Source of the DNA: Candidatus Thorarchaeota archaeon
GTDB taxonomy: Archaea > Asgardarchaeota > Thorarchaeia > Thorarchaeales > Thorarchaeaceae
Assembly: GCA_011364905.1 (NCBI GenBank)
Contig: RDNZ01000031.1
Location: 1-22,304 of the forward strand
Reading direction: 5' to 3'
DNA length: 22,304 nt
Part shown: in pieces, positions 14,691 to 22,304 of the stretch
Position numbering within the stretch: position 1 is the first letter of the stretch
How the letters are laid out: the number at the start of each line of letters is the position of its first letter
Program-made: the position numbers and the translations under genes
The notes under the pieces: generated by a model
Database searches by the model: none
Seen by the model: the letters and a program-made list of their open reading frames with translations, nothing else
What the model was told of the DNA's origin: nothing

Positions 14691-16541
14691 TTAGTCATCC
14701 ATGTACGGGTCTTCATCAATATCGATGTCTGCGTAGCCAACATCCCTCAATAGGTCTTCAATCGACTCAGCTCCAGTGACCCATGAGAGTGCCCATTCTC
14801 CATCATCGTGGAGATTCAATTCCACATCCGGGAGGTCTCCGAGCAGGTTGTGGTCCATCTCTATAGTATCTTGATATGCTCCTGCAAGTGCTAGGACAAA
14901 GCAAGATCCTCGAACATTCCCAAGATTACCAACTGGAATCCCATCGCCCATCATGCCCCCGGGTGTTGTCAAGAGCCTATTGTCCTTGGTAAACCATACG
15001 CTATCTGTATGTGGTCGATAAAACTGAGTTATCTCACCATCGGAATCGCATGTTATGTCCACGAGCCGGACAGTGGTTTGTGGTTTCACATGGAGATCAC
15101 TAATAGGAAGAACTGGAAAATGCTGTTGTACCAAGACGTGGTCAGCGACGCTGTTAAAGACACTGAAGTTACCGATTACAATGTGCTCCGGGCGCCAAAA
15201 GTTTCTGAGAAGACCATCAATCTCATAGGACTTTAGATTCAATTCGACAAGTTTCGATCTCACTGCATCCTCAAGAGTCCCTGTTATCATCTCTTGCTCA
15301 AAGATGAATTTCATCCCTTTCAGATTCAAACCGCCATATTTCTCATGGAATTCGTTCCAAATCTCTCGAAGGTTTTCCAAAGTGGAGGCTTCCTTGATTC
15401 TTTCGAGGGTTGGTTTGACATCCTCTTCAGAGACTTCTGAAATGCTTCGTTTCTCAGGCGACGGAAAGATTGATCGCACTTCGAGAGCCTCTACAATGAC
15501 CATGGATGCAAGTGCTGTGACACCTCTACCCGACTCTATCATGATGTTTGGTGGTGGATGTTTTCTCCCTATTTCGGAGAGTTGCGACTTCACTCCCGAC
15601 ACGAGGAGATGTGCATATTGATACATCAGATCTGGTGTAAGCGAGCTTGTATAGTCAATTGCTAAGCCTCCTCCGAAGTCAATACTTGCAAGCTCAGTTA
15701 ATCCGAAATCCCGAAGTTCAGCATAGAATTGCGTTAGAAGCTTTCCAAATCTCTCGAAGGCTTCAATCTCAGTTATTTGTGAACCTGCATGGGCAAGGAT
15801 GGTTTTGACTGAACTGGAGAAACCGCTTTTTTGTAGCAGTTCGACAACATCATAGAGGTCATGAATACTCAGGCCAAACTTGGAGTCTCTTCCAGTGGAA
15901 TGCGACCAATGTCCTTGCACACTCAGATATGGCTTGATTCGCAGCACAAGGTTGGTTTCATCAGGCTTGAAGCGCTCAACAATCAAGCTGAGTTCATGGA
16001 CCGACTCCACCGATATGGCTATGTTGTATCCCTCATCCACACACTGTTTGATCAACTTCAGATACTCGACGTCCTTGGCGCCATTGCATACAATGGGCCT
16101 ATGCTTTTCACTCTCGATGACATGTTTGATGAGGAGGAGCTCCGCCTTTGTCCCTGCTTCCAGCCCATAGTCTGAGTCTGAGCGAATGACTGCAGTGACA
16201 CAGTCTTTCCGTTGATTCACCTTCACGGGATAAATGCCTATGAAACTACCCGCATATTCAAGCTCGCTCATTGCACGATCGAATGCCGCCCTTAGTTTCT
16301 TGATTTGATATGTGATTAGCTGTGGCACACGCAAGGTAAACGACGAGGTATAGCTCGGGGCGTTTCCATTCATTTGCTTTATTCTCTGAATGATTTCTTT
16401 GAAAGTGATGAACTTGTCACCAAGTATTAGAGAGAGGTCTCCATCTTCTGTGATGTCCAGAAAGTGGAGGTCATTACGGTTTACGCCATAAATCCATCGC
16501 GAGTCATCTAGTGACCAAGTTTCTTCTACCAATAGATTCAC
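14691..16541 (-). CDS. speA: Biosynthetic arginine decarboxylase (PLP fold-type III, SpeA-like)
   Basis: YPVKVNQ (PLP Lys), GLEAGTKAEL, CNGAKD, SKFGL, HAGSQI, DFGGGL, ESGR, NFSVF, DITCDSDG, GAYQ, HNLLG; start may be TTG 16532 after AGGTGA. Confidence 0.88.
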   Translation of the reverse strand: MNLLVEETWSLDDSRWIYGVNRNDLHFLDITEDGDLSLILGDKFITFKEIIQRIKQMNGNAPSYTSSFTLRVPQLITYQIKKLRAAFDRAMSELEYAGSFIGIYPVKVNQRKDCVTAVIRSDSDYGLEAGTKAELLLIKHVIESEKHRPIVCNGAKDVEYLKLIKQCVDEGYNIAISVESVHELSLIVERFKPDETNLVLRIKPYLSVQGHWSHSTGRDSKFGLSIHDLYDVVELLQKSGFSSSVKTILAHAGSQITEIEAFERFGKLLTQFYAELRDFGLTELASIDFGGGLAIDYTSSLTPDLMYQYAHLLVSGVKSQLSEIGRKHPPPNIMIESGRGVTALASMVIVEALEVRSIFPSPEKRSISEVSEEDVKPTLERIKEASTLENLREIWNEFHEKYGGLNLKGMKFIFEQEMITGTLEDAVRSKLVELNLKSYEIDGLLRNFWRPEHIVIGNFSVFNSVADHVLVQQHFPVLPISDLHVKPQTTVRLVDITCDSDGEITQFYRPHTDSVWFTKDNRLLTTPGGMMGDGIPVGNLGNVRGSCFVLALAGAYQDTIEMDHNLLGDLPDVELNLHDDGEWALSWVTGAESIEDLLRDVGYADIDIDEDPYMDD

Positions 16542-16570: not shown

Positions 16571-18049
16571 CTATCCTTCATCTTCACGAATTGAGTCGAG
16601 CATCCCCTGAAAAGCACGGGCAAGCTCGCCAATCTCATCATCTTTTGCGGTATAAGTCGTGTCCACTTGAAGGTCTCCAGTATCAAGAGGTTTGTCTAGA
16701 ATCCTTGCTGCAGCATTTCTTTCTGCCAGGTCAATGAGATACTGTAATGGCCTAGTAATAGTATTCGAAATGGCAACAGCCGCTATGCCCGCTATCAAAA
16801 TGCCTCCGACTGTAACTAGGATAATATAGGTCGCAGCTTGAGTATTCTGGTTGGCGATACGAGCCTGAAGCAGTGGAATACTTTCTAGCACTTCGTTTAG
16901 CGGGACTGATATCACACAGATGTAATCACCCTTGCCTACTTGTGTGAATACTAGAATATGTTCAGTTCCTCCTCGAGTATATCTGAGGGTTCCTGAGGTT
17001 CCAACGGCTACACTAGTGATTTGGTTGATATTGGCATCTGTCAATGCTGAAGTGAAGTCCGGATTGACCTCCACATTACGAAGATCCGGTAGACCACCAA
17101 TGTAATCCTCATCACTAACCTCCGGATGCGCTACTACACCTCCAGCCGAATCGACTAGAAATGCATACCCGCTCTCCAGAATCTTGACATTGATTACTTT
17201 CTCCCTGATGTCTTCTATGGTGATGTCTCCGGAGATGACGGCAAATGGAATACTGTTTCTATATACCACTCTCCCGATTGAGATTAGAAGCACATTATCG
17301 AATTCATCATAGTATGGTTCAACAAACACCACGTCGCCATTTCCCGCCCAGATTGTCTGATACCAATCTTCTCCTCTTGGGTCATAGGGATTTGCCAATC
17401 TTGCTGGATCAGTAAGCTCTCCAAGAATACTACCTGGATAGTTTATGAATAGTCCATCATCAGCAAAAGCGATGTAGAGCCATCTGAACGCCAACTGATT
17501 GTGTATCGCTTTGAAGATGTAGTCCATATTGGATACCCGTCCAAGTTTGTCGGCATTCGCAGGAATGTCCGCATAGCTTGAATTGTAGTTGACGGAAGTT
17601 GTCCCTGCAACATACCAGCTGCTATAGTCCCATGACACATTCAGGCCATAATTGGGATCATAGTGATTATCGCTTGGCGCAGGAGAAACGCTGTCGTCTT
17701 CGAACAAAAGGTCATAGTATACTTCTCGATAGGCGTATGTTGAGCCGGCATCAAATAAAGCCTCGAGTTCTTCTGCTGCAGCCGCAATCATTCCTTCTGC
17801 ACTGGCCAACTTTTGGTTAATCACTAGAGCGGTCTTTTGAGCGGTTTCATTCATATTCGTTTGAATTTGATTCTCCAGAGCCTGTGAACTCTGGTCTCTT
17901 GTTGAGTTACCTATTAGATTCACAAAAGTCAGTGAAACCAGACCGGTTGCAGTTAATGATACAAGTGAGATTACTAAGAAAGTAAGAATCACATTTGTTC
18001 GGAATTTCCCCTTCTTCTTGGTTTGGGTTGTTGACTGTACCATTCTCAT
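16571..18049 (-). CDS. Membrane receptor-like protein TM-dCache_1-TM-HAMP with no output domain
   Basis: TM1 VILTFLVISLVSLTATGLVSL; dCache motifs YDPRGEDWY, EPYYD, ISGDITI, GYAFLVDSAGGVVAHP; TM2 YIILVTVGGILIAGIAAVAI; HAMP ITRPLQYL...DEIGELARAFQGML then stop. GGAGGTG SD at 18052-18058 (ATG 18049 or 18043). Confidence 0.88.
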   Translation of the reverse strand: MRMVQSTTQTKKKGKFRTNVILTFLVISLVSLTATGLVSLTFVNLIGNSTRDQSSQALENQIQTNMNETAQKTALVINQKLASAEGMIAAAAEELEALFDAGSTYAYREVYYDLLFEDDSVSPAPSDNHYDPNYGLNVSWDYSSWYVAGTTSVNYNSSYADIPANADKLGRVSNMDYIFKAIHNQLAFRWLYIAFADDGLFINYPGSILGELTDPARLANPYDPRGEDWYQTIWAGNGDVVFVEPYYDEFDNVLLISIGRVVYRNSIPFAVISGDITIEDIREKVINVKILESGYAFLVDSAGGVVAHPEVSDEDYIGGLPDLRNVEVNPDFTSALTDANINQITSVAVGTSGTLRYTRGGTEHILVFTQVGKGDYICVISVPLNEVLESIPLLQARIANQNTQAATYIILVTVGGILIAGIAAVAISNTITRPLQYLIDLAERNAAARILDKPLDTGDLQVDTTYTAKDDEIGELARAFQGMLDSIREDEG

Positions 18050-18059
18050 CGCACCTCCT

Positions 18060-20933
18060 TTAATAATCGGTAGTGGTTCCTCCAACCTCCATTTGTGCCA
18101 TTAGCACTCCGACTTTCTCAAATGCTCTCTCAATATCTAACCGAACATTTGTGCTATCAACCACAGAGATGTACTGCCCCTCCGGAATCCCTTCACATAT
18201 AGATTGCAGAAGTTCCTCTGTGGTTATTGGTTGCCCTGTGGTGCCTGATCTGATTCTTTTATCAGTGTCCGCTCTATTATTGAGTTCCTGCCCAACACCA
18301 ATGATCAGTAGATTGACATCCAAATGATGGTCTCGAATGAAGCCCTCGATTGTCAGTGGTCTCTTTCTTTTCATTCTGTCCTTTTCTGTGACAATACCCT
18401 CAAGAACATCCAAAGAGTACCTCTTTGAGCTGTTGTCTTGGCCATCAGTCAAAGCGATGACCCATCGATGCTCGCTTGATTCAATCCTCTCAAGCTCTTC
18501 AAGTGCTCGGCCAAGAGCATCATAGAATGCAGTGGCGTAGTTGGGATATTTCAGAGATTTCAATACTCTAACAATTTTATTCTCCTCATCTTCACTCTCT
18601 CCCTTGATTGTCAGCGGAAGCAATTCTCGATAGGATGAGTTGAATACTATCACTGACACTTGATCCTGCGGATTGACTTGAGAATGAAGTATCTCTAGGG
18701 CTCCTCTAACAGCCGCTCTTATCCGATTCTGAGCCTGCATACTGCCTGAATAGTCAATCACGAATGTGACACTCTTTCTGAACATGATTGAGCGCCGCAG
18801 TTTCTCAGCTTTTCGTCTGACTTCATGACTTGGCTCGTTACGCTGGTCAAGAACATCTGCCAGCCGCTGCAACGCATAAACAACCAGCCAGAGCTCATCA
18901 GTGTCTTGACCGAGTCCGATTGCTTCGTTATATGCCCCTTCTGCCTTCTTCCATTTTCCTTGAACCTGATTCAACTCACCTTCATGAAATTGGATATAGG
19001 CAAGGCTTCTGATATAGTCAATCGATTTTGCTATCTCTTTTGCCTCATTGAATCTGGATTGAGCTTGACTGTAACGTCCATCATGCATCAGTACAAGTCC
19101 CATCGCGTCGAAACGTTTTGCTAGACCATACTGATTCTTTAATGTCCGGTCGATGGCTTCAGCATCTTCTAGGAGCTTCATTGCCTTATCGGCGTGTCCA
19201 CGATCCATCTCAACAAGTGCCATGTTATGATAGAGAGAAGCTATTCTTTGCATTGCGTCTCTCTCATCTGCACCCTCTTCCTTAGTTCTCTGTAGAATTC
19301 TCTGTGCGATGGCCATGGATTGTGAATAGTAATCCATTGCATTTCCTGTATCGCCTCTTTGCCTGAACACATTTCCAATGTTGAGGAGCATTGTCTGCTC
19401 TCCAACATCGATTTGAAGTCGTCTACTTATTTCAAGCAAATTCTGGTAGTTTGCCAACGCCCGATTAAGGTCGCCGCGAATGAATGCCTGGTTGCCAAAT
19501 CGCGCTGCTTCTTGAAAACTAAGAAGCGCATCAACCGTGGTACCCACTTCTTCATACATCGCCCCTGCTGCTGTGATTCCTCTCGTGAAGTCTTGACGCG
19601 CCATTTTATTGACAAGACGAGTCATCTCAGTGATTGGCTCAATCACCGCATTGGCTCTTCTATAGGAAGCAGCGGCTACAACTCCTGCGACCATCGCAAG
19701 AACAGCTCCTAAAGCAATAGTTAGAATTAACGTCTGTGCACCCACAAGATGAAGCATATTGCTTGCTGGAGCAATCACATCCGAGTCGGGAACAACAATG
19801 GCTAGTATATACTCCGTATTCGTGATATTGGCAAAGGCCATATGCCATGTTTGTCCATTCTTTTGGAATTCCAGCTGACCTGCTTCATAGACCAGAACGT
19901 TGGAGTTGAGTTGATTATCGAACTCGATAGCCTCAGGACTTGTTGTGCTCCCGAATTCCAAAGTTTCAATGGGGAGGGGATCATCAAAAACACCAAGATC
20001 TGGGTGTGCAACTACGACACCGTTTCTATCAAGTAGATATGAATATCCGTTGTCCAGTACGTCGAGGTTCAACACTTTTTGGTTGATTGTTGCCATAGTC
20101 ACATCTGCAGACACAACGCCAATCAGTGTTCCATCGTCGAATCTGACTGGTCTTCCCATGGAGATGACTAGACCCACTGATGGATCAACATATGGCTCCG
20201 TGAAAACAACGCTGTTATCACTGGGATCTTGTGCTACCACATTTGTGTACCAGTCTTCTGCATTAGGGTCATAATCTTGCGCAGGTGGGACTGGATTTCC
20301 ATCTTCATCCTGCTGGAAATAGATGAGGTTGTCAAATGGATAGTTTCTGAAGAGATGTTGGTCGGATATGTTAAGGTCGAATCCCATGTATAGCCATCTG
20401 TAATCCTCATTCATTTGATGCAGAGACCTGAAGATGTTGACCATGTTGGATGAAACGTCCAGAGCATATTGTGTTCCAGGTGAGAGATCATGCGGGTCGT
20501 TATTGTTCCATGCAAAACGCGGCATGTAATAACAATCAGTTTGAAACGTGATATTATTTGAAAAATAGGCCTCGACAATACTAGGGTCTGTTTCAAAGGT
20601 GAGATCCCCCCAGTTGGGCTCTTCTAGGGGGTCCCAATAATAGCTGTACTGCGCCGTCGCATTTATCCGTTCATTGAACAAGTCTTCGCAGTAAGCCTCC
20701 ATCATATAGACGCCATCTACGTAGTTCTGCCATCTCTCTTCAATGAATAGACTTGTGTCATTAGCAAGTCTCATGAGATTAGCTAATTCTTCTGTCTTCA
20801 GCTCCCCTGCAGCATCGGATGCGTTTGCATTTGACAGGTCGTTTATTGCGAGTATCGATAATGTCGAAATGACCAAAATCGGGATTAGTGCAACGGTGAC
20901 GAATGTGATTACTATTCTTTTTGAAATCCTCAT
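18060..20933 (-). CDS. Membrane receptor TM-dCache_1-TM-HAMP-TPR-VWA
   Basis: TM1 IVITFVTVALIPILVISTLSIL; YDPNAEDWY, TEPYVD, VVSADVT, GYSYLLDRNGVVVAHP; TM2; HAMP VIEPITEMTRLVNKMARQDFT...EEVGTTVDAL; about 5-6 TPRs; VWA with DYSGS, ATAFYDAL and LTDG (complete MIDAS). Confidence 0.9.
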   Translation of the reverse strand: MRISKRIVITFVTVALIPILVISTLSILAINDLSNANASDAAGELKTEELANLMRLANDTSLFIEERWQNYVDGVYMMEAYCEDLFNERINATAQYSYYWDPLEEPNWGDLTFETDPSIVEAYFSNNITFQTDCYYMPRFAWNNNDPHDLSPGTQYALDVSSNMVNIFRSLHQMNEDYRWLYMGFDLNISDQHLFRNYPFDNLIYFQQDEDGNPVPPAQDYDPNAEDWYTNVVAQDPSDNSVVFTEPYVDPSVGLVISMGRPVRFDDGTLIGVVSADVTMATINQKVLNLDVLDNGYSYLLDRNGVVVAHPDLGVFDDPLPIETLEFGSTTSPEAIEFDNQLNSNVLVYEAGQLEFQKNGQTWHMAFANITNTEYILAIVVPDSDVIAPASNMLHLVGAQTLILTIALGAVLAMVAGVVAAASYRRANAVIEPITEMTRLVNKMARQDFTRGITAAGAMYEEVGTTVDALLSFQEAARFGNQAFIRGDLNRALANYQNLLEISRRLQIDVGEQTMLLNIGNVFRQRGDTGNAMDYYSQSMAIAQRILQRTKEEGADERDAMQRIASLYHNMALVEMDRGHADKAMKLLEDAEAIDRTLKNQYGLAKRFDAMGLVLMHDGRYSQAQSRFNEAKEIAKSIDYIRSLAYIQFHEGELNQVQGKWKKAEGAYNEAIGLGQDTDELWLVVYALQRLADVLDQRNEPSHEVRRKAEKLRRSIMFRKSVTFVIDYSGSMQAQNRIRAAVRGALEILHSQVNPQDQVSVIVFNSSYRELLPLTIKGESEDEENKIVRVLKSLKYPNYATAFYDALGRALEELERIESSEHRWVIALTDGQDNSSKRYSLDVLEGIVTEKDRMKRKRPLTIEGFIRDHHLDVNLLIIGVGQELNNRADTDKRIRSGTTGQPITTEELLQSICEGIPEGQYISVVDSTNVRLDIERAFEKVGVLMAQMEVGGTTTDY

Positions 20934-20973: not shown

Positions 20974-22304
20974 CTAGCTGCTCCAGTTTGCTAACTCCTC
21001 CAACAATTTCCTTTGGAAATCATCGATATCCTGTTTCTCTTCCAGGATAAACTCATCTCCTGAGAGTGATCCCTCTACAGATCCTTCACCAAGAAGAATA
21101 ATTAGTGTCCGCCGCAAGATTCGACGATCCACACCAGTTTCTTGTTCAAGTTGCCGAACATCTAATGAATTCGTACCACGCAGTAGGTTACGAAGAGTTT
21201 CAGGTACCTTCTGAATGCTTTTTCTCGAGGGTGCAGGTATCTTCTTTTTCTTTGTCGATTCTGTTCGTACGAACATGTTTCCATCAATATGTCCCTCTAT
21301 CACATCACTTTGAATCATCGCTTGAAGACTACGCCGCAAGTTGTATGCCGCCGGTCTAGGCAGAGTCCGTCGCAGAATTCGGTCGAGGTCTTTGAGCTTG
21401 ATTCTGTTATGTTTCGATGTTATTGAATCAATGCTCTCTTGGATGTACTCCTCGATCACGTATTCTTCAATCATCTCCAGTTGAGCTCCACATGATGGAC
21501 AAGTAGAAGCTTCTGGTGATGTCGGAGCCCCGCAGTTTCCGCATTTGATTGCTCTTCTGTAAAGAACTGTCTTCGTTGAACTGATCTGTTGGAGAATTAC
21601 TTTGTCAGTCCTTGTGACCTTTCCAGACTCCTGCACTTCCCAAAAGCTGAGTTTTCGATCTTTTGTGCTCAATACAAGAAATGCGACATCCGATATGTCA
21701 TCTGGAACTCCCGTAGCCATGGCTCTTGGTGTATCTCCTATATCTAGTCTATCAACCTCATTTCCGTCAAGGTCCCAGATTCGAAGAGTTGACGTCTGAT
21801 CCCCAGTTATGAATAAAGTCCGGCTTTCAAATGAGAGTACGGCAAAAACTGTAAGATGCGACCCCAACTGCAATTCTTTGAGCTGGTATCCAGCTGCCGT
21901 TAGAACAATCACCAGCCCAGTTTTGTCAGCAACTACAATCTCCAGTTCTGAGTCTTTTGTTATATCCTCTAACCAAACATCTGCAATTGGATTTCGCATC
22001 GTCCTCGTAAAGATTGCATCTGTATCATCATTGTAAAGGATCAATCGGTTGTTTTGTAGCCCTACTGCAACCTCAGCTGCATCATCTCCATCTATATCTC
22101 GCGCATCACATGCCACTACATTGCTCTCCAATCTGATATTCCAGACTGGGGTCCCACGATGATCGACTACCAATACCTTCTTCCCGACGCCCCCTACAAG
22201 GGCATCTTTTCCCTCACCTTCTACATCAGCAACAGCAATACATCGGACTTTGCTGCTCCACTTTCGGGAATCCCTCAACATTCCCTTTGCATCAAAAACC
22301 CTCA
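20974..22304 (-). CDS. Partial (5' end beyond window): FG-GAP-like beta-propeller + Zn ribbon + two PCI-like winged helices
   Basis: Frame stays open to the window edge (..RVFDAKGMLRD); blades ADVEGEGKDALVGG, RDIDGDDAAEVAVG, EDITKDSELEIVVA, TGDQTSTLRIWD, STKDRKLSFWE; CGNC-x10-CPSC; two wH-like segments ending VIEGHIDGNMF and SVEGSLSGDEF. Confidence 0.75.
   Translation of the reverse strand, partial: RVFDAKGMLRDSRKWSSKVRCIAVADVEGEGKDALVGGVGKKVLVVDHRGTPVWNIRLESNVVACDARDIDGDDAAEVAVGLQNNRLILYNDDTDAIFTRTMRNPIADVWLEDITKDSELEIVVADKTGLVIVLTAAGYQLKELQLGSHLTVFAVLSFESRTLFITGDQTSTLRIWDLDGNEVDRLDIGDTPRAMATGVPDDISDVAFLVLSTKDRKLSFWEVQESGKVTRTDKVILQQISSTKTVLYRRAIKCGNCGAPTSPEASTCPSCGAQLEMIEEYVIEEYIQESIDSITSKHNRIKLKDLDRILRRTLPRPAAYNLRRSLQAMIQSDVIEGHIDGNMFVRTESTKKKKIPAPSRKSIQKVPETLRNLLRGTNSLDVRQLEQETGVDRRILRRTLIILLGEGSVEGSLSGDEFILEEKQDIDDFQRKLLEELANWSS

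What the first reader, a model, noticed from the sequence alone, without database searches (positions are those of the whole stretch)
17360..20273. Charge-reversed ligand pocket (Arg to Glu) in both Cache domains next to an agmatine-producing enzyme: possible amine/polyamine sensors
Known: the dCache_1 amino-acid motif is YDPRxRPWY...PYxD...D, where Y, R and W bind the ligand carboxylate and the later Y and D bind the amino group. Seen: YDPNAEDWY (20247-20273; Glu at 20256-20258) and YDPRGEDWY (17360-17386; Glu at 17369-17371). Both retain PYxD and the distal Asp (SADV, SGDI) but have Glu-Asp in place of Arg-Pro. The next gene downstream is a SpeA-type arginine decarboxylase. Inference: the pockets favour decarboxylated, doubly cationic ligands such as agmatine, putrescine or cadaverine, so the cluster may make and sense its own signal.
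Basis: partly seen in the sequence, partly recalled or inferred. Interest (0 to 1): 0.72.

Follow-up and report, generated by a model that had tools for sequence, protein, structure and literature searches.

The report
Arg-to-Glu Cache sensors linked to SpeA
Two neighbouring membrane sensors of a Thorarchaeota (Asgard) archaeon have lost the arginine that normally holds an amino acid's carboxylate and carry an acidic residue instead. This sensor pair sits next to an arginine decarboxylase gene in many Asgard lineages, so it probably senses an amine such as agmatine or a polyamine, but no binding has been measured.

Summary
Both motifs lie on the minus strand: YDPNAEDWY (Glu 20256-20258) and YDPRGEDWY (Glu 17369-17371). 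They align to YDPRxRPWY of PctA/PctB, so Glu occupies the Arg126 position, and PYxD and the distal Asp are kept.

Among about 120 Thorarchaeota orthologues of the small receptor the Glu is invariant. The following Asp is not.

Across Asgard archaea the gene pair (dCache-TPR-VWA plus dCache-HAMP) carries E/D, sometimes Q, at this site. It lies beside a SpeA-type decarboxylase in at least six families, in four different gene orders. Paralogous pairs that keep the canonical Arg show no SpeA nearby.

A tree separates the big and small receptors, and both clades hold Arg and acidic forms. The change therefore happened in both partners.

No basic residue appears elsewhere to compensate. The nearest solved structures are amino-acid sensors, not TlpQ/McpU.

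Limits: there are no binding data, there are too few independent evolutionary transitions for a statistical test, the sensors face outward while SpeA is cytoplasmic, and the signalling output is unknown.

Verdict: a new, Asgard-specific variant of the amino-acid dCache sensor, probably amine-sensing.

In passing, I found an alpha2delta-like dCache with an inserted VWA domain in Heimdall-group archaea.

The parts
20974..22304 (-). First gene of the cluster: a cytoplasmic beta-propeller + Zn-ribbon protein, cut at its 5' end by the contig end.
   Evidence: Pfam gives weak beta-propeller hits and Zn_Ribbon_1. No transmembrane segment was found. Orthologues lie directly upstream of the big receptor in all Thorarchaeota-family loci examined, with E 1e-90 to 1e-219.
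18060..20933 (-). Big receptor P0001 (957 aa): TM1, extracellular dCache_1, TM2, HAMP-like linker, TPR array, and a cytoplasmic VWA domain with an intact MIDAS motif (DYSGSM).
   Evidence: Pfam: dCache_1 63.9 bits, TPR_12, VWA_2 and VWA. Transmembrane segments at residues 3-34 and 393-424.
20247..20273 (-). YDPNAEDWY, the N-terminal half of the amino-acid motif in the big receptor, with Glu (20256-20258) at the PctA Arg126 position.
   Evidence: Orthologues carry E, or sometimes Q, at this site.
20103..20195 (-). PYVD (20184-20195) and the distal Asp of SADV (20103-20105): the amino-group-binding half of the motif, retained.
   Evidence: These positions are 88-100% conserved among acidic-type sequences.
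16571..18049 (-). Small receptor P0002: TM1, extracellular dCache_1, TM2, HAMP, then the stop codon, with no output domain. The true start is most likely ATG 18049, which is preceded by GGAGGTG.
   Evidence: Pfam: dCache_1 61.7 bits and HAMP. Orthologues are 484-492 aa. Ribosome-binding site and ATG. Transmembrane segments at residues 30-59 and 416-444. The AlphaFold2 model of the ectodomain has pLDDT 93.3.
17360..17386 (-). YDPRGEDWY in the small receptor, with Glu (17369-17371) at the PctA Arg126 position.
   Evidence: The Glu is invariant in about 120 orthologues of 56-95% identity.
17225..17317 (-). PYYD (17306-17317) and the distal Asp of SGDI (17225-17227), both retained.
14691..16541 (-). 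SpeA-type PLP-dependent (fold III) arginine decarboxylase, 616 aa, cytoplasmic. It is the last gene of the cluster, starting 29 nt after the small receptor's stop codon.
   Evidence: NCBIfam NF003763 scores 351.7 bits against a cut-off of 369, and TIGR01273 scores 345.5 against 624. It aligns end to end with SpeA structures 3NZP, 3N2O and 3NZQ and keeps the catalytic motifs. It is the only Orn_Arg_deC_N hit in the genome.

Best explanation
The window holds a conserved Asgard-archaeal gene cluster: beta-propeller protein, dCache_1-TPR-VWA receptor, dCache_1-HAMP receptor, SpeA.

[quoted passage not shown] Both kept the residues that hold a ligand's primary amino group (the Tyr and Asp of PYxD, and the distal Asp) and the aromatic Tyr/Trp/Tyr. 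Both replaced the Arg that binds the alpha-carboxylate with Glu or Asp. They often also lost the neighbouring Arg124 and gained a second acid at position 127.

The most likely consequence (inferred) is a pocket that rejects amino acids and accepts a primary amine without an alpha-carboxylate. The persistent linkage to arginine decarboxylase makes agmatine, or a polyamine made from it, the best candidate.

The two receptors probably act together as a heteromeric or co-receptor pair. They probably pass the signal without a kinase, through the HAMP, TPR and VWA (MIDAS) parts, to the cytoplasm, possibly onto SpeA itself or its expression. That would couple external amine levels to polyamine synthesis.

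Shown here: motif homology, conservation, parallel substitution in both paralogues, gene linkage, and membrane topology. Inferred: the ligand class, the pairing of the receptors, and the output.
For: 1. Glu sits exactly at PctA Arg126. Arg126, Tyr121 and Trp128 bind the carboxylate, and Tyr144 and Asp173 bind the amino group (PMC8915833). An R126A change lowers affinity 61-fold.
2. The Glu is invariant in about 120 orthologues of the small receptor. Across 43 acidic-type Asgard sequences the site is E 29, D 8, Q 6. Position 127 is D/E in 74%. Arg124 is kept in only 21%, against 100% in Arg-type sequences. No column gains K/R, so there is no compensating salt bridge. W128, Y129, Y144, D146 and D173 are 88-100% conserved.
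3. The big and small receptors form two clades (SH-aLRT 99 each), and both clades contain Arg-type and acidic-type members. The change therefore occurred at least once in each partner. When the small clade is rooted with the big clade, its base is Arg-type.
4. SpeA linkage. In a sample of 151 Asgard genomes, 20 of 20 Thorarchaeota-family genomes with both genes have them adjacent. Other families keep the linkage in different orders: big>small>speA (G123, G015, G148), speA>big>small (L025), a divergent arrangement (G130, G062, G086), a convergent arrangement (L026), and speA 6 kb away (G118). About 30 of 31 genomes with the acidic pair also have SpeA. About ten genomes have SpeA without the pair.
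5. Controls. Pairs of the same architecture with canonical Arg (L029, L030/L031, L032/L033), and the Arg-type Cache genes in L014 and L016, have no Orn_Arg_deC_N gene in the fetched flanks.
6. Precedents. dCache domains of McpU and TlpQ bind agmatine, putrescine, cadaverine and spermidine in a strongly negative pocket. They hold the primary amine with the Tyr/Asp/Asp equivalents kept here (PMC6234866). The amine sensors dCache_1AM evolved from dCache_1AA (PMC10589655).
7. These are the only two dCache_1 domains in the genome.
Against:
- Some linked orthologues carry Q, W, F or Y at the site: family f12, and the big receptors of L004, L008, L011 and L026. Charge is therefore not strictly required.
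- One acidic pair (L028) has no SpeA within 8 kb. Another (L027, small receptor E with big receptor R) shows none in the visible flank.
- The association rests on few independent events: three state changes, and one independent pair on well-supported branches. It is not statistically testable.
- The sensor domains are extracellular and SpeA is cytoplasmic.
- The SpeA gene may simply be the housekeeping source of agmatine. No PvlArgDC was found, though the genome is only 81% complete.
- Tested dCache_1AM domains did not bind putrescine or agmatine.
- TlpQ and McpU belong to a different dCache cluster that lacks this motif region altogether (PMC6974571).
Confidence: 0.5

Rival explanations
1. 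The acidic pocket binds another cationic or hydrogen-bond-donating species: ammonium, a divalent metal such as Mg2+ or Ca2+, ethanolamine, an amino sugar or a guanidino compound. The pair then adjusts polyamine synthesis in response to that cue, for example because polyamines can stand in for Mg2+.
For: A cluster of Asp/Glu plus aromatic residues suits many cations. Gln variants suggest hydrogen bonding rather than a strict charge interaction. dCache_1 domains binding inorganic ions and small amines are reported. The SpeA linkage is equally consistent with regulating SpeA by a different signal.
Against: The complete primary-amine-binding triad (Tyr/Asp/Asp) is kept at 88-100%. This argues for an organic primary amine rather than a metal. 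Nothing in the neighbourhood points to metal or ammonium metabolism.
Confidence: 0.2
2. The distal pocket is no longer a small-molecule site. The two proteins are structural or co-receptor partners of something else, for instance the beta-propeller protein or a surface partner. SpeA adjacency would then reflect shared expression or inherited gene order only.
For: Neither receptor has a canonical output domain. Some orthologues have degraded motifs, for example the big receptors of L028 and L026 and the small receptor of L027 with LHYD. Gene order around the cluster is broadly conserved within Thorarchaeota. The association has few independent events.
Against: The Glu is invariant and the remaining pocket residues are near-invariant over sequences down to about 30% identity. 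That indicates selection on the pocket. SpeA linkage survives four different rearrangements across families, which inherited gene order alone does not explain.
Confidence: 0.15
3. The domains still sense an amino acid, namely the SpeA substrate L-arginine or another basic amino acid. The Glu would contact the side-chain guanidinium or ammonium group in an altered binding pose.
For: Arginine is the substrate of the linked enzyme. Tyr121 and Trp128, which also contact the carboxylate in PctA, are retained. The closest solved relatives include the PctB-Arg and Mlp24-Arg complexes.
Against: Arg126 is the central carboxylate ligand. A Glu there, often with a second acid next to it, should repel a carboxylate. 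In the dCache_1AA survey the Arg is part of the definition of amino-acid binders. Arg-type paralogous pairs exist in the same lineages and are the ones not linked to SpeA.
Confidence: 0.1

Closest known systems
dCache_1AA, the universal amino-acid sensor (PctA/PctB/PctC, Mlp24, Mlp37, Tlp3, CtaA; Gumerov et al. 2022, PMC8915833)
   Same: These are the best sequence and structure matches. The motif scaffold is the same, Y-D-P-x-x-[R]-x-W-Y ... P-Y-x-D ... D, and five of the six motif residues are kept. The topology is also the same, with the domain between two transmembrane helices.
   Different: The carboxylate-binding Arg126 is Glu (E/D/Q in relatives). Arg124 is often lost and position 127 is often acidic. 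The outputs are HAMP alone or TPR-VWA, not MCP, kinase or cyclase domains.
dCache_1AM, the amine-recognising domain (PctD, PacA, McpX, M. mazei 3LIB; Cerna-Vargas et al. 2023, PMC10589655)
   Same: The evolutionary logic is the same: an amine sensor derived from dCache_1AA by replacing the carboxylate-binding residues while keeping the two aromatic residues and the distal Asp. 3LIB is the second-best PDB sequence hit of the small receptor.
   Different: The AM motif does not conserve Tyr121, and Tyr144 is variable there, whereas both are conserved here. The AM-specific insertion with its Arg-Asp pair could not be identified. Among archaea, AM was reported only in Halobacteriota, and tested AM domains did not bind agmatine or putrescine.
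McpU (P. putida) and TlpQ (P. aeruginosa), polyamine/histamine dCache receptors (PMC6234866)
   Same: Their negatively charged pocket holds the primary amine with Tyr/Asp/Asp at positions equivalent to PYxD and the distal Asp. They bind agmatine at 0.15-0.5 uM. This is the proposed functional analogue.
   Different: They belong to a separate dCache cluster that lacks the conserved YDPRxRPWY region. They are absent from the phmmer hits (E up to 1) and from the top 50 Foldseek hits. Whether TlpQ Glu170 is equivalent to the Glu here could not be tested.
Canonical-Arg paralogous pairs in Asgard archaea (loci L029, L030/L031, L032/L033)
   Same: The two-gene architecture is the same (dCache-TPR-VWA followed by dCache-HAMP), often with a beta-propeller gene alongside.
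   Different: They keep YDPRxRxWY and have no SpeA gene in the flanks.

Membership tests
dCache_1 (Pfam PF02743) | Score above the Pfam gathering cut-off, and the double PAS-like fold between two transmembrane helices | tested here: met
   63.9 and 61.7 bits against a cut-off of 45. The AlphaFold2 model has pLDDT 93.3, and all top Foldseek hits are dCache domains. Transmembrane helices flank both domains.
dCache_1AA (amino-acid sensor) | Arg at the PctA-126 position, binding the ligand's carboxylate | tested here: not met
   Glu in both proteins. The site is E/D/Q in relatives.
dCache_1AA (amino-acid sensor) | Tyr121, Trp128 and Tyr129 | tested here: met
   Y..WY is present in both proteins. 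Trp and Tyr are conserved in 42 of 43 relatives.
dCache_1AA (amino-acid sensor) | Tyr144 and Asp173, which bind the amino group | tested here: met
   PYVD and SAD, PYYD and SGD.
dCache_1AM (amine sensor) | The AM_motif: an insertion with a charged Arg-Asp pair above the pocket, an extra cation-pi aromatic residue, a hydrophobic residue plus Ser (PctD M215/S217), two aromatic residues and the distal Asp | tested here: inconclusive
   Only the two aromatic residues and the distal Asp could be mapped (alignment to 3LIB). The full motif is given only in figures that are not held. The retained Tyr121, Tyr144 and Asp146 resemble the AA type more than the AM type.
McpU/TlpQ polyamine dCache class | Common descent, meaning closer similarity to 6F9G/6FU4 than to amino-acid sensors | tested here: not met
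   Not among the phmmer PDB hits at E up to 1 nor the top 50 Foldseek hits. That class lacks the conserved motif region.
McpU/TlpQ polyamine dCache class | Measured binding of agmatine or polyamines | not testable with these tools
   Needs ITC or thermal shift with purified ectodomains.
Biosynthetic arginine decarboxylase SpeA | NCBIfam equivalog score cut-off | tested here: not met
   NF003763 scores 351.7 against 369, and TIGR01273 scores 345.5 against 624.1. This is a divergent archaeal form.
Biosynthetic arginine decarboxylase SpeA | Full-length collinearity with solved SpeA structures, and the PLP-Lys and active-site motifs | tested here: met
   Aligns over residues 3-610 with 3N2O and over 50-603 with 3NZP. 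YPVKVNQ, HAGSQ, GGGLAIDY, ESGR and DITCDSDGEI are conserved.

The most novel reading that the evidence does not exclude
Asgard archaea, including Thorarchaeia, Heimdall-group Kariarchaeaceae and Hodarchaeales, may share a kinase-free two-receptor system. Its paired extracellular dCache domains would have been re-tuned in parallel from amino acids to agmatine or polyamines. Its cytoplasmic TPR-VWA/HAMP parts would act directly on the adjacent arginine decarboxylase. This would be an extracellular polyamine feedback or autocrine signalling circuit in the closest archaeal relatives of eukaryotes. It would be built from the same dCache-plus-VWA parts as eukaryotic alpha2delta/CACHD1 proteins.
Probability: 0.2. 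Interest if true: 0.8.

Novelty: new variant of a known kind. Interest (0 to 1): 0.62.

Why it matters
Ligands of most sensor domains are unknown, and no sequence signature yet exists for polyamine-sensing dCache domains. The 2023 amine-motif paper says this class has not been characterised.

This clade offers a simple, testable signature: the amino-acid motif with Arg126 changed to Glu or Asp. It comes with a genomic pointer to the ligand (SpeA) and built-in natural controls (Arg-type paralogous pairs).

The clade occurs in Asgard archaea, where signal transduction is almost unstudied, and its receptors lack any canonical output domain. It could therefore also reveal a new way of transmitting a signal across the membrane.

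Tried and rejected
- Plus-strand reading of the coordinates gives unrelated peptides. The feature is on the minus strand.
- Searching for an internal compensating basic residue in acidic-type sequences found none.
- I looked for independent bacterial replicates with a degenerate DNA pattern for YDPxxEDWY over 185,579 species genomes. It gave 103 matching stretches, of which 80 were listed and examined. The only listed ones that also have PYxD and the distal Asp are Asgard. Bacterial Cache-like hits (Cohnella, cyanobacteria, Lachnospiraceae, Niallia, Paenibacillus) lack the amino-binding half, and the rest are unrelated proteins. So there is no independent replicate, at least for the 'ED' form.
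- A phylogenetically independent test of the link between the acidic state and SpeA found only 1-3 independent pairs, too few for a sign test.
- Other polyamine genes do not recur in the neighbourhood. I saw one MFS transporter, one second fold-III decarboxylase and a LarE-like PP-loop gene, none of them recurrent.
- The Hist_deacetyl gene upstream in Thorarchaeota loci has no NCBIfam assignment, so a link to acetylpolyamines is unproven.
- The equivalence of TlpQ Glu170 to the Glu here could not be established. No residue-level alignment is obtainable, and TlpQ/McpU are not retrieved by sequence or fold searches.
- Pocket geometry could not be inspected because model coordinates are not exposed.
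- The careful tree search did not finish in the time allowed, so the quick IQ-TREE trees were used.

Full report
**Observation.** The two nonapeptides are real but lie on the minus strand. Plus-strand translation gives unrelated peptides. window:20247-20273(-) reads YDPNAEDWY and window:17360-17386(-) reads YDPRGEDWY. The Glu codons (GAA) are at 20256-20258 and 17369-17371. PYVD lies at 20184-20195 and PYYD at 17306-17317. The distal Asp residues lie at 20103-20105 and 17225-17227.

The motifs sit in two adjacent genes.
- P0001 (18060-20933, 957 aa) contains dCache_1, TPR repeats and a VWA domain.
- P0002 (ORF 16571-18085) contains dCache_1 and HAMP and then stops. Its true start is most likely ATG 18049, which is preceded by GGAGGTG, because orthologues are 484-492 aa.

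Both dCache_1 hits exceed the Pfam cut-off. Two hydrophobic segments flank each Cache domain, so the domains face outward. The next gene (14691-16541) is a full-length SpeA homologue. It keeps the PLP-lysine and active-site motifs but scores just under the NCBIfam equivalog cut-offs. Gaps between the genes are 10-40 nt, so they probably form an operon together with an upstream beta-propeller/Zn-ribbon gene (20974-22304, cut by the contig end).

**Register of the motif.** phmmer against the PDB aligns YDPRGEDWY with YDPRRRPWY of PctB and YDPRSRPWY of PctA. In PctA, Tyr121, Arg126 and Trp128 bind the ligand's carboxylate, Tyr144 and Asp173 bind the amino group, and R126A lowers affinity 61-fold (PMC8915833; PMC6974571). 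Both window proteins therefore keep five of the six motif residues and carry Glu in place of Arg126. An AlphaFold2 model of the small ectodomain is confident (pLDDT 93.3). Its best structural neighbours are amino-acid-binding dCache domains (PscC, Mlp24, PctA/B/C, Mlp37, Tlp3, CtaA) and alpha2delta/CACHD1. TlpQ and McpU are not among them.

**Organism and conservation.** Homologues are named Thorarchaeota. Among about 120 orthologues of the small receptor (56-95% identity), the Glu is invariant. The residue after it varies (Y > D > F > G, P, E). The genome (81% complete) has only these two dCache_1 domains and only this one fold-III decarboxylase. It has no pyruvoyl arginine decarboxylase, one arginase/agmatinase-family gene, and no detectable spermidine synthase.

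**Wider family.** A full HMMER scan of 1.84 billion representative proteins returned 1746 hits. Aligning the best 150 showed that the nearest roughly 35 representatives carry E, D or Q at the Arg126 position, while more distant ones carry the canonical YDPRxRxWY. Both size classes, about 480 aa and about 900 aa, occur with either state. Named acidic-type members are Hodarchaeales and other Asgard MAGs.

**Gene linkage.** I searched a sample of 151 genomes of the phylum with SpeA and with the small ectodomain.
- In the window's family, all 20 genomes that have both genes have them adjacent.
- Outside that family the big and small receptors remain next to each other, and SpeA stays linked in other arrangements:
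  - big>small>speA (G123, G015, G148);
  - small<big< then >speA, divergent (G130, G062, G086);
  - speA 6 kb upstream (G118);
  - speA>big>small (L025);
  - big>small> then <speA, convergent (L026).
- About 30 of 31 genomes with the acidic pair have SpeA. About ten have SpeA without the pair. The pair therefore seems to depend on SpeA, and not the reverse.
- One acidic pair (L028) has no SpeA within 8 kb. One mixed pair (L027, small receptor E with big receptor R) shows none in the visible flank.

As controls, pairs of identical architecture with canonical Arg (L029, L030/L031, L032/L033), and the Arg-type Cache genes in L014 and L016, have no SpeA in the fetched flanks.

**Residues across the linked pairs.**
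- Small receptor: E or D in five families, Q in family f12.
- Big receptor: mostly E. It is Q in three cases, W or F in f12 (with a Glu one position earlier), and Y in L026.
- Over 43 acidic-type sequences, position 126 is E 29, D 8 and Q 6, and position 127 is D/E in 74%.
- Arg124 is kept in 21%, against 5 of 5 Arg-type sequences.
- No column gains Lys or Arg, so there is no compensating internal salt bridge.
- Trp128, Tyr129, Tyr144, Asp146 and Asp173 are 88-100% conserved.

**Phylogeny.** A tree of 53 ectodomains separates the big from the small receptors (SH-aLRT 99 on each side), and both clades contain Arg-type and acidic-type members. The site therefore changed at least once in each partner. 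With the big receptors as outgroup, the base of the small clade is Arg-type. This fits Arg being ancestral, as in bacterial dCache_1AA. The minimum number of state changes among small receptors is three. Only one independent contrast lies on well-supported branches, so the association with SpeA cannot be tested statistically. These are quick IQ-TREE trees, because the careful search did not finish.

**Independent replicates.** I scanned 185,579 species genomes with a DNA pattern for YDPxxEDWY and got 103 matching stretches, of which 80 were listed and examined. Only Asgard sequences among them combine it with PYxD and the distal Asp. Bacterial Cache-like hits lack the amino-binding half, and the other hits are unrelated proteins.

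**Interpretation.** The data support a pocket that has lost carboxylate binding and gained negative charge while keeping the primary-amine site. This happened in two paralogous receptors that are always encoded together. The selected linkage to arginine decarboxylase survives rearrangement.

The best reading is that this is an amine sensor, with agmatine or a derived polyamine as the leading candidate. It works like McpU and TlpQ, which bind agmatine at 0.15-0.5 uM in a negative pocket using the same Tyr/Asp/Asp triad. It is not their relative, however, because they lack this motif region. It parallels the origin of dCache_1AM from dCache_1AA but differs from that motif. The 2023 paper states that a polyamine class of dCache domains has not been characterised. 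I found no paper on this Asgard cluster.

Rival readings remain open: another cation or amine, a non-ligand pocket, or a basic amino acid.

**Side finding.** While classifying Arg-type Cache genes I found P0280 (L138:5042-6829) in a Heimdall-group genome that NCBI names B3_Heim.
- It is a 595-aa membrane protein. A VWA domain is inserted between YDPRTRPWY and PYVD...GAD of a canonical amino-acid motif.
- It aligns in one collinear stretch (152-484) with alpha2delta-1 (176-533, E about 7e-18) and it also matches CACHD1.
- It has at least 24 further cluster relatives in Kariarchaeaceae, Hodarchaeales and other Asgard MAGs.
- Gumerov et al. placed this VWA insertion at the last eukaryotic common ancestor, after transfer from Bacteria.
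- No paper in the library holds 'Asgard' together with alpha2delta, CACHD1 or VWA_N.

This deserves its own follow-up.

Noticed in passing
L138:5042-6829 (+) (genome G119, 'Candidatus Heimdallarchaeota archaeon B3_Heim'); truncated copy at L016:4009-5664 (-): This is a 595-aa Asgard membrane protein. A VWA domain (MIDAS DISGSM) is inserted inside a canonical amino-acid dCache_1, between YDPRTRPWY and PYVD...GAD, and there is a weak VWA_N hit. That is the architecture of eukaryotic alpha2delta/CACHD1. It aligns in one collinear stretch with alpha2delta-1 (E about 7e-18). It has at least 24 further cluster relatives in Kariarchaeaceae, Hodarchaeales and other Asgard MAGs. P0176 (993 aa) may be a double-dCache form. 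Published work placed this VWA insertion at LECA after transfer from Bacteria, and I found no paper linking it to Asgard archaea.
   Followed up: partly
L029, L030/L031, L032/L033 (metagenome and MAG contigs): Paralogous pairs of the same two-gene architecture (dCache-TPR-VWA followed by dCache-HAMP, often with a beta-propeller gene) keep the canonical Arg motif and lack SpeA. The kinase-free receptor pair therefore looks like a general Asgard module with at least two ligand classes.
   Followed up: partly
L001:4492-5580, L002:4502-5581, L004:4471-5550 (beyond the window's contig end): A Hist_deacetyl (PF00850) gene of about 360 aa lies divergently upstream of the beta-propeller gene in all three Thorarchaeota contigs examined. 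The family includes acetylpolyamine amidohydrolases, but no NCBIfam model matched, so any polyamine link is unproven.
   Followed up: partly
window 18047-18085: The mechanical ORF for the small receptor starts at TTG 18085 and overlaps the big receptor's stop codon. ATG 18049, preceded by AAAGGAGGTG, fits the length of the orthologues and leaves a 10-nt gap, consistent with translational coupling.
   Followed up: yes
L008:10567-12024 (genome G123): A second fold-III PLP decarboxylase (486 aa; Orn_Arg_deC_N plus Orn_DAP_Arg_deC) lies directly after SpeA in one Asgard family. An MFS transporter precedes SpeA in L007. Neither recurs in other families.
   Followed up: no
L038, L041, L045, L058, L066, L075, L083, L110 and L035, L046, L054, L062, L073, L080, L081, L087, L109: Two unrelated protein families share the nonapeptide YDPxxEDWY without any Cache similarity. 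One reads 'PTTYDPNAEDWYSFP...' and occurs in Thermoplasmata, Gemmatimonadota and other bacteria. The other reads 'GAGYDPEKEDWY...' and occurs in proteins of about 385 aa from Aminicenantes and Eubacteriales MAGs.
   Followed up: no
G000:C41:11529-12347 (-) (locus L034): This is the only arginase/agmatinase-family gene of the genome. No spermidine synthase and no pyruvoyl arginine decarboxylase were found in the 81%-complete assembly, so the route from agmatine onward is unclear.
   Followed up: no
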